DNA from: Octopus vulgaris
Taxonomy: Eukaryota
Assembly (NCBI GenBank): GCA_951406725.2
Contig: OX597823.1
Coordinates: forward strand, 14,694,001 to 14,758,000
Direction of reading: 5' to 3'
Length of the DNA stretch: 64,000 bases
The position numbers and the translations under genes were made by a program. Positions within the stretch are counted from its first letter, which is position 1. Each line of letters starts with the position of its first letter. The notes beneath the pieces were generated by a model. The model had not been told where the DNA came from and made no database searches. It saw only the letters and a list, made by a program, of their open reading frames with translations. Below, piece after piece: positions 9,385 to 9,990 of the stretch.

Positions 9385-9985
9385 CTCGACCTTTTTTCGA
9401 GTAGCATGCGTACTGGGAAAAAAATTATATGGTAAATGGACAATATGTCCTTTTTTCGGCATATGTGGCATTAGAAAATTTTTCGTTTGCCCTTATTTAT
9501 AAGTTGTTTATAATTTAACCTTTAAAGGTATTTTTTAATATGCTGGCCATTGATAAAAAATTTTTTCGAAAAAATGTTATCCTACATTAGATATAAATTT
9601 AATAGTGTTCATTTCCGGACTCTCTCACTCTGTGAGTGCCTCAGTTCAAATCGCACGTGTCTTGAATGGGCTGGAGTGTTTCTATTTTGGATTTATTTGG
9701 GGTACTTAGTTGTGCTCATGACTTAGTGTTTGCTTCTTCCATGGGTATGAGTAAGTATCTTATTTACTTCTTTGCCACATGTATCACTGACGAAGGGAGG
9801 GTTCTTTTTGAACTAACCCTGAAATCGGTCCGATATGGTAATAATGGAATTTTTAGAGATTTCTGTCGGCCTTTTTTCGAGTAGCGTGCATACTTGGAAA
9901 AAAATTATATGGTAAATGGACAATATGTCCAATTTTCGACATGTCTGGCATCAGAAATTTTTTCGTTTGCCCTTATTTATAAGTT

Positions 9986-9990
<5 letters not shown>
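9385..9990 (+). mobile_element. TA-flanked retrozyme/Penelope-like element: about 125 bp direct repeats (9386-9510, 9866-9990) around a hammerhead
   Basis: tcg.cctttttt..cgagtagc...cccttatttataagttgttta occurs twice about 480 bp apart, with (TA)n on both sides. Confidence 0.75.
9782..9840 (+). ncRNA. Type I hammerhead ribozyme
   Basis: tatca-CTGACGA-aggg(agggttctttttgaactaa)ccct-GAAA-tcg gtc cga-TA-tggta. All three stems pair; cleavage triplet AUA. Confidence 0.75.

What the first reader, a model, noticed from the sequence alone, without database searches (positions are those of the whole stretch)
9385..9990. Retrozyme-like 1.25-mer: about 480 bp monomer with one hammerhead and about 125 bp terminal redundancy
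Seen: direct repeats at 9386-9510 and 9866-9990, a fully paired hammerhead at 9782-9840 just upstream of the second repeat, no recognisable coding capacity, and (TA)n on both sides. Known: metazoan non-LTR retrozymes are short monomers with one type I hammerhead, integrated as partial or full tandems. Inference: more-than-unit-length cDNA copied from a circular or multimeric RNA template.
Basis: partly seen in the sequence, partly recalled or inferred. Interest (0 to 1): 0.72.

Follow-up and report, generated by a model that had tools for sequence, protein, structure and literature searches.

The report
Penelope-mobilised hammerhead retrozyme copy
This is one of many scattered copies of a small non-coding repeat that carries a hammerhead-ribozyme motif; its copies end at two fixed points and often sit as mirror-image pairs in TA repeats, so they were likely pasted in by a Penelope-type retrotransposon enzyme, probably from uncut longer-than-unit RNA rather than from a randomly opened RNA circle.

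Summary
In detail: 125-bp direct repeats 480 bp apart, a type I hammerhead motif at 9782-9840 (predicted cut after 9835), no coding frame, (TA)n flanks. It belongs to a dispersed non-coding family (381 exact 19-mer hits; likely thousands of copies) with related ~480-bp families. Start points are not circularly permuted: 55 of 67 position-ordered copies end at one of two fixed sites 90 nt apart, 44 of 67 carry a head-to-head inverted arm, and 50 of 52 two-armed insertions pair one end of each type. This is the Penelope-like (PLE) footprint: internal priming, with the 'tail' at one end. The hammerhead site is no boundary (8 of 11 arms pass it). Arms and repeats of one insertion share variants, and two independent insertions inherit the same unit-to-unit differences, which points to a tandem read-through template; circles are neither shown nor excluded. 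No coding parent was found; Hydra-clade PLEs are the best guess. It is a new member of a known kind (non-LTR retrozyme, non-autonomous PLE). The scan noted similar elements elsewhere in this genome and the one-tailed pairing in another genome.

The parts
9386..9865 (+). One full 480-bp monomer (34% GC), non-coding
9386..9510 (+). 5' copy of the redundant segment (monomer 1-125); its 5' end is a truncation point
9866..9990 (+). 3' copy of the redundant segment; ends at fixed site A (inferred reverse-transcription start)
9513..9595 (+). ~90-nt 'tail' between fixed ends A and B; holds the palindrome at 9518-9529 and the RTGCT-N6-9-GAT motif at 9540-9554 shared with sister families and several Hydra-PLE tails
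9589..9601 (+). Fixed end site B (monomer about 204-216), internal in this copy
9782..9840 (+). Type I hammerhead motif; core 9787-9793 and 9821-9824, palindromic stem III 9824-9834, predicted cut after A9835 (cleavage untested)
   Evidence: alternative minimum-energy fold
9321..9384 (.). (TA)n target, left flank
9990..10176 (.). (TA)n then (TACA)n, right flank; any target-site duplication is hidden in it

Best explanation
This is a 1.26-unit copy of a dispersed, non-coding 480-bp hammerhead repeat family that was likely mobilised in trans by a Penelope-like (PLE) reverse transcriptase/GIY-YIG endonuclease, probably copying uncut, longer-than-unit RNA. Shown: two fixed 3' ends (A, B) 90 nt apart, TA-repeat flanks, variable 5' truncation, head-to-head arms that pair A with B, no stop at the hammerhead site, and shared variants within an insertion. 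Inferred: the enzyme binds the tail, cuts both strands of (TA)n, one strand primes at A and the other at B on the same RNA or on sister RNAs of one source, and the truncated cDNAs join head to head. When one arm runs more than 480 nt a terminal redundancy results, as here. Odds: PLE machinery 90%; Hydra clade 55%; read-through tandem RNA as the main template 55%, monomeric circle 35%, other 10%.
For: 3' ends at A in 30, at B in 25, elsewhere in 12 of 67 position-ordered loci; inverted arm in 44 of 67. AB 50, AA 1, BB 1 among 52 two-armed insertions with both ends at A or B, out of 119 loci examined (binomial p 3e-13). In L119 and L120 the two arms do not overlap, so neither is a fold-back copy of the other. 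Repeats within a copy differ at 319 of 6113 sites (492 expected) and inverted arms at 449 of 8599 (697 expected); shared derived bases 118 vs 37 and 182 vs 53 (pairs are not independent). Of 36 arms not selected for the hammerhead, 11 reach it, 3 stop at 441-461 and 8 pass. L011 and L018 have different junctions and no shared flank but share 9 same-order differences between their 5' and 3' units. In vitro, a PLE protein cuts and extends both strands, starts at two internal RNA sites that define the tail, and does not need hammerhead cleavage (PMC11167929). Hydra PLEs target (TA)n, and most listed Hydra hammerheads have a palindromic stem III around one base, as here (PMC8557442).
Against: No autonomous element with a homologous terminal repeat was found among GIY-YIG hits, other hammerhead families or Hydra-type loci; these searches score only top candidates. 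Tandem sources are rare: 0 of 67 loci had two intact same-strand cores, and 1 direct pair appears among the first 100 of 381 listed hits, which a circle would explain more easily. In most copies the two units agree at subfamily sites (253 of 302), which also fits a circle. The tail is 90 nt, not the 30-40 nt described for PLEs. The Hydra tail motif was picked by eye after the fact and matched 4 of 7 Hydra tails as extracted.
Confidence: 0.72

Rival explanations
1. Classical retrozyme cycle: tandem transcripts self-cleave (likely as dimers) into 480-nt monomers that circularise, and a PLE enzyme primes at A and B on the circle and goes round more than once.
For: The fold is conserved and covaries between families. 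The two repeats of a copy are as alike as its two arms, 5.2% different in both cases. No family-wide position-specific variants. No stop at the cut site. Genomic dimers are rare. Circles are shown for coral and mussel retrozymes (PMC7229834, passages and section 14).
Against: L011 and L018 inherit two different units in the same order, which a monomeric circle cannot give. The window's own repeats differ at 10 of 114 sites, not closer than controls. The predicted minimum-energy fold is inactive. 8 of 9 Xenopus dimers did not cleave in vitro (Li et al. 2026).
Confidence: 0.33
2. The copies are merely 5'-truncated ends (pLTR plus tail) of a coding PLE that I did not find.
For: The insertion anatomy is that of PLE ends, and decayed Hydra-type and other PLE families are abundant in the genome.
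Against: Upstream of the hammerhead the sequence runs back into the tail of the previous unit with period 480. The one same-strand PLE match in a 5' flank that I read out (L137) is separated from the element by a (TA)52 run. Sister families are also ~475-480-bp closed units.
Confidence: 0.07
3. The mirror-image arms arise by fold-back self-priming of one cDNA (as proposed in PMC3846280), and the direct repeats by local DNA duplication.
For: Arms share variants, and some junctions overlap by a few bases.
Against: Arms are not nested: either can be the longer, and in L119 and L120 they share no sequence. The strict A-with-B pairing is not expected from fold-back.
Confidence: 0.08

Closest known systems
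Metazoan non-LTR retrozymes (Cervera and de la Pena 2020, PMC7229834; passages and section 14 read)
   Same: Non-coding, low GC, one type I hammerhead per monomer, partial and full tandems, co-occurs with PLEs, no PBS/PPT noticed by eye.
   Different: Monomer 480 bp, just above the 150-450 bp given there. Mostly dispersed sub-monomer and head-to-head copies, not arrays. Fixed ends. Circular RNA and cleavage not shown.
Non-LTR retrozymes as non-autonomous PLE derivatives (Li, Clavereau and Pollet 2026, 10.64898/2026.07.22.740005; parts 1-3 of 5 read, supplements closed)
   Same: Same conclusion: moved by PLE machinery.
   Different: That paper argues from co-occurrence and pLTR homology, mostly in vertebrates. 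Here the evidence is insertion anatomy, and no homologous pLTR was found. The window copy has one hammerhead and fails their two-unit 'active' criterion.
EN+ PLE insertions with inverted pLTR and tail (Arkhipova et al. 2013, PMC3846280, passages; Craig et al. 2021, PMC8557442, passages, section 11, parts of supplement; Frangieh et al. 2024, PMC11167929, parts 1-2 of 4)
   Same: 5' truncation, partial tandems, adjacent inverted copy, tail at one end, two internal starts, AT-rich targets.
   Different: No ORF; tail about 90 nt; the one-tail rule is nearly strict here (50 of 52).
Hydra-clade PLEs including Hydra-1_Obim (PMC8557442)
   Same: (TA)n target and palindromic stem III around a single base. 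Hydra-type copies in this genome show two ends about 65-70 nt apart and a similar short tail motif.
   Different: No alignable homology to the monomer; hammerhead-to-end distance about 155 nt here against about 40 nt.

Membership tests
Non-LTR retrozyme | Type I hammerhead in each monomer | tested here: met
   Sequence and covariation; Rfam models miss it
Non-LTR retrozyme | Short non-coding monomer of low GC | tested here: met
   480 bp, 34% GC, no ORF; slightly above the published size range
Non-LTR retrozyme | Tandem copies with two or more hammerheads | tested here: met
   Met for the family (L136, L137) but rare (0 of 67); not met by the window copy
Non-LTR retrozyme | Self-cleavage | not testable with these tools
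   Predicted minimum-energy fold is inactive
Non-LTR retrozyme | Accumulation as circular RNA | not testable with these tools
   Only assembled contigs of guessed-RNA runs were available
Non-autonomous PLE derivative | 5' truncation, inverted 5' arm, tail at one end, microsatellite target | tested here: met
Non-autonomous PLE derivative | Homology to the pLTR or 3' end of an autonomous PLE | tested here: inconclusive
   None found, but only top candidates were scored; short tail motif only
Autonomous PLE (any clade) | RT plus GIY-YIG ORF joined to the repeat | tested here: not met
Plant-type LTR retrozyme | Type III hammerhead in each LTR, PBS/PPT, 4-bp TSD | tested here: not met
   One type I motif, outside the repeated segment; PBS/PPT and TSD not formally searched

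The most novel reading that the evidence does not exclude
A group of ~480-bp hammerhead units in this genome are 'Penelope SINEs' driven by Hydra-clade enzymes. Each insertion is a single event in which an enzyme dimer primes both strands of a cut (TA)n target at two fixed, non-interchangeable sites on one uncut RNA. The hammerhead is then dispensable for integration, and the animal retrozyme 'rolling circle' is largely read-through of 1.x-unit copies like this one.
Probability: 0.4. Interest if true: 0.62.

Novelty: new member of a known kind. Interest (0 to 1): 0.42.

Why it matters
Which enzyme moves animal retrozymes, and whether the template is a circle, are both open; the papers read offer co-occurrence and homology only. 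This family records the reaction in its insertions: fixed dual starts, strict A/B pairing, no barrier at the ribozyme, and at least one heterogeneous tandem template. It gives a short, ORF-free RNA substrate for testing two-strand PLE priming in vitro. The classes themselves and the one-ended tail are already described, which limits the surprise.

Tried and rejected
Rfam found no hammerhead. Search for the autonomous parent led nowhere. Three young two-ORF GIY-YIG families (781, 775 and 775 aa) and older relatives share no terminal repeat with the monomer; the match beside L062 is a separate sister-family insertion in a TA tail. Other hammerhead families had no adjacent PLE ORF. Hydra-type loci showed no homology, nor did sister-family flanks. 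RNA: no RNA holder listed on record; contigs of guessed-RNA runs cover the unit in short pieces and cannot show strand, ends or circles. Circular permutation of ends was rejected. A hard stop at the cut site was rejected, though a mild excess (3 of 11) is not excluded. The 830-bp insert in L078 looks like an unrelated insertion. L001 and L002 share a 5' junction but no flank; I could not tell shared ancestry from a recurrent junction at a TCGA palindrome. A look-up of earlier scan notes by sequence found nothing. The full published Hydra-1_Obim sequence was not aligned to the genome, so a distant relation to it stays open. Repbase and Dfam were not available, so the family may already be catalogued there.

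Full report
Observation. The repeats, the 480-bp period, the hammerhead coordinates, the AUA triplet ending at 9835, the lack of coding and the TA flanks are all as described. The motif is a type I hammerhead with a long, interrupted stem II and a palindromic stem III. Rfam does not score it, and the predicted minimum-energy fold is an inactive alternative. On 40 sequences chosen by hand from 105, pairing is 97% against 22-40% for slid controls, with compensatory changes in all three stems. These mostly reflect the split between this family and a sister family, so they are few events.

Family. The genome is 2.8 Gb in 227 contigs. It is likely an octopus; this is my inference from size, microsatellites and Hydra-type hammerheads that match the Hydra-1_Obim row by eye. 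The 605-bp query gave 3903 first-look candidates, of which 40 were scored at 87-95% identity apart from self. An exact 19-mer in the hammerhead occurs 381 times, control 0. A tail motif occurs 2477 times, control 0, across at least three families. The sister families are also closed, non-coding units of about 475-480 bp with their own hammerheads.

Ends. I mapped 68 loci taken in genome order from the 19-mer list (70 fetched, 2 duplicates dropped); 67 were scored. Forward arms end at site A (monomer 115-130) in 30, at site B (200-220) in 25, elsewhere in 12, mostly into TA repeats. 5' ends scatter from -194 to 425. An inverted arm abuts the 5' end in 44. Across 119 loci (72 from the 19-mer list including 6 picked for having paired matches, 47 from BLAST sets), 69 had both orientations. 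In 52 both outer ends lay at A or B: 50 AB, 1 AA, 1 BB; 16 had an end elsewhere and 1 had another geometry. Ends are therefore fixed, not permuted. The window copy is an A-ended arm that ran 605 nt, which produces the 125-bp redundancy.

Template. Within an insertion, direct repeats (54 pairs) and inverted arms (94 pairs) each differ at 5.2% of sites against 8.1% for other loci, with about three times the expected shared variants (120 loci). Both arms thus come from one template lineage. The window copy is an exception: 10 of 114 sites differ, control 10.2%. Arms are not nested, and two cases share no sequence, which argues against fold-back. The cut site is not a barrier: 8 of the 11 unselected arms that reach it pass it, so cleaved linear monomers were not the usual template. 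That leaves circles or uncut tandems. For circles: units agree at 253 of 302 subfamily sites (171 expected), no family-wide positional variants were seen, and intact dimers are rare. For tandems: L011 and L018, independent insertions, share 9 same-order differences between their 5' and 3' units, and the B arm of L018 carries the 5'-unit haplotype. That is one clear case among 1317 comparisons of repeat pairs; smaller same-order overlaps there may be alignment or end effects.

Machinery. The anatomy matches PLE insertions: partial tandems, an adjacent inverted truncated copy, and a tail at one end (PMC8557442 passages; PMC3846280 passages). The anole PLE protein cuts and extends both strands, starts at two internal sites that define the tail, and works without hammerhead cleavage (PMC11167929, parts 1-2 of 4). 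Palindromic stem III suits dimeric cleavage (PMC4209133 passages). The genome holds young two-ORF GIY-YIG PLEs and decayed Hydra-type PLEs, but none that I fetched shares a terminal repeat with this unit. Hydra is the best guess, from the (TA)n target, the stem III form in File S2 and a short tail motif. That motif is present in 3 of 3 sister tails, 4 of 7 Hydra tails as extracted (a fifth, L406, shows it in the printed sequence but was cut at the wrong place) and 0 of 3 other PLE tails, background 0.009 per 120 nt; it was chosen after the fact. The Hydra lead came from an earlier scan note.

Comparison. It works like a non-autonomous PLE and meets the sequence-level features of a non-LTR retrozyme (PMC7229834, passages and section 14). 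Cleavage and circular RNA could not be tested. That animal retrozymes derive from PLEs is already proposed (10.64898/2026.07.22.740005, parts 1-3 of 5; supplements closed), and non-autonomous PLEs with head-to-tail copies are noted in Chlamydomonas. Six literature searches showed no description of this family and no count of tail pairing. PMC6962438 (passages) only counts hammerheads in giant squid. Earlier scan notes, unchecked, report 359- and 360-nt PLE-moved retrozymes in this genome and tailed-with-tailless pairing in another genome.

Verdict. It is a new member of a known kind, with useful mechanistic statistics. Interest 0.42.

Noticed in passing
L061-L068 (e.g. L064:1368-5071), L195-L199: Three very young two-ORF PLE families (upstream ORF of about 450-560 codons; RT plus GIY-YIG ORF of 775-781 codons), some in full tandems with a 4271-bp unit. 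The upstream ORF tested (L064) has no Pfam match, and their terminal repeats showed no canonical hammerhead in my pattern scans.
   Followed up: partly
L179, L193, L263, L327; L170, L186, L407-L436: Sister non-coding ~475-480-bp hammerhead families sharing the tail motif; L263 holds about 2.6 tandem units.
   Followed up: partly
L253-L262, L073:586-1013: Another abundant short hammerhead family (compact stem II, palindromic stem III), often in fold-back form, with no adjacent PLE ORF seen.
   Followed up: partly
L347-L362, L327: AT-rich decayed Hydra-type family with a very long stem II hammerhead and head-to-head arms.
   Followed up: partly
L304, L308, L313, L321: Hydra-type frames with long asparagine/serine-rich low-complexity inserts before the endonuclease part, similar to the N-rich inserts reported in rotifer PLEs (PMC3846280).
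   Followed up: no
window 9031-9289 (minus strand): Very high-copy repeat with a tRNA-like head by eye (SINE-like) just left of the TA target; another common repeat lies at about 10180-10520.
   Followed up: no
window about 14940-15000 (minus strand) and 4443-4496: A second hammerhead-like motif with a paired stem III, and a short piece resembling a sister family.
   Followed up: no
L082, L083, L084, L087, L088, L092, L096, L118: Many copies begin at site B (monomer about 198-209), often right after a TA run, suggesting 5' joining by TATA microhomology or cutting at that site.
   Followed up: no
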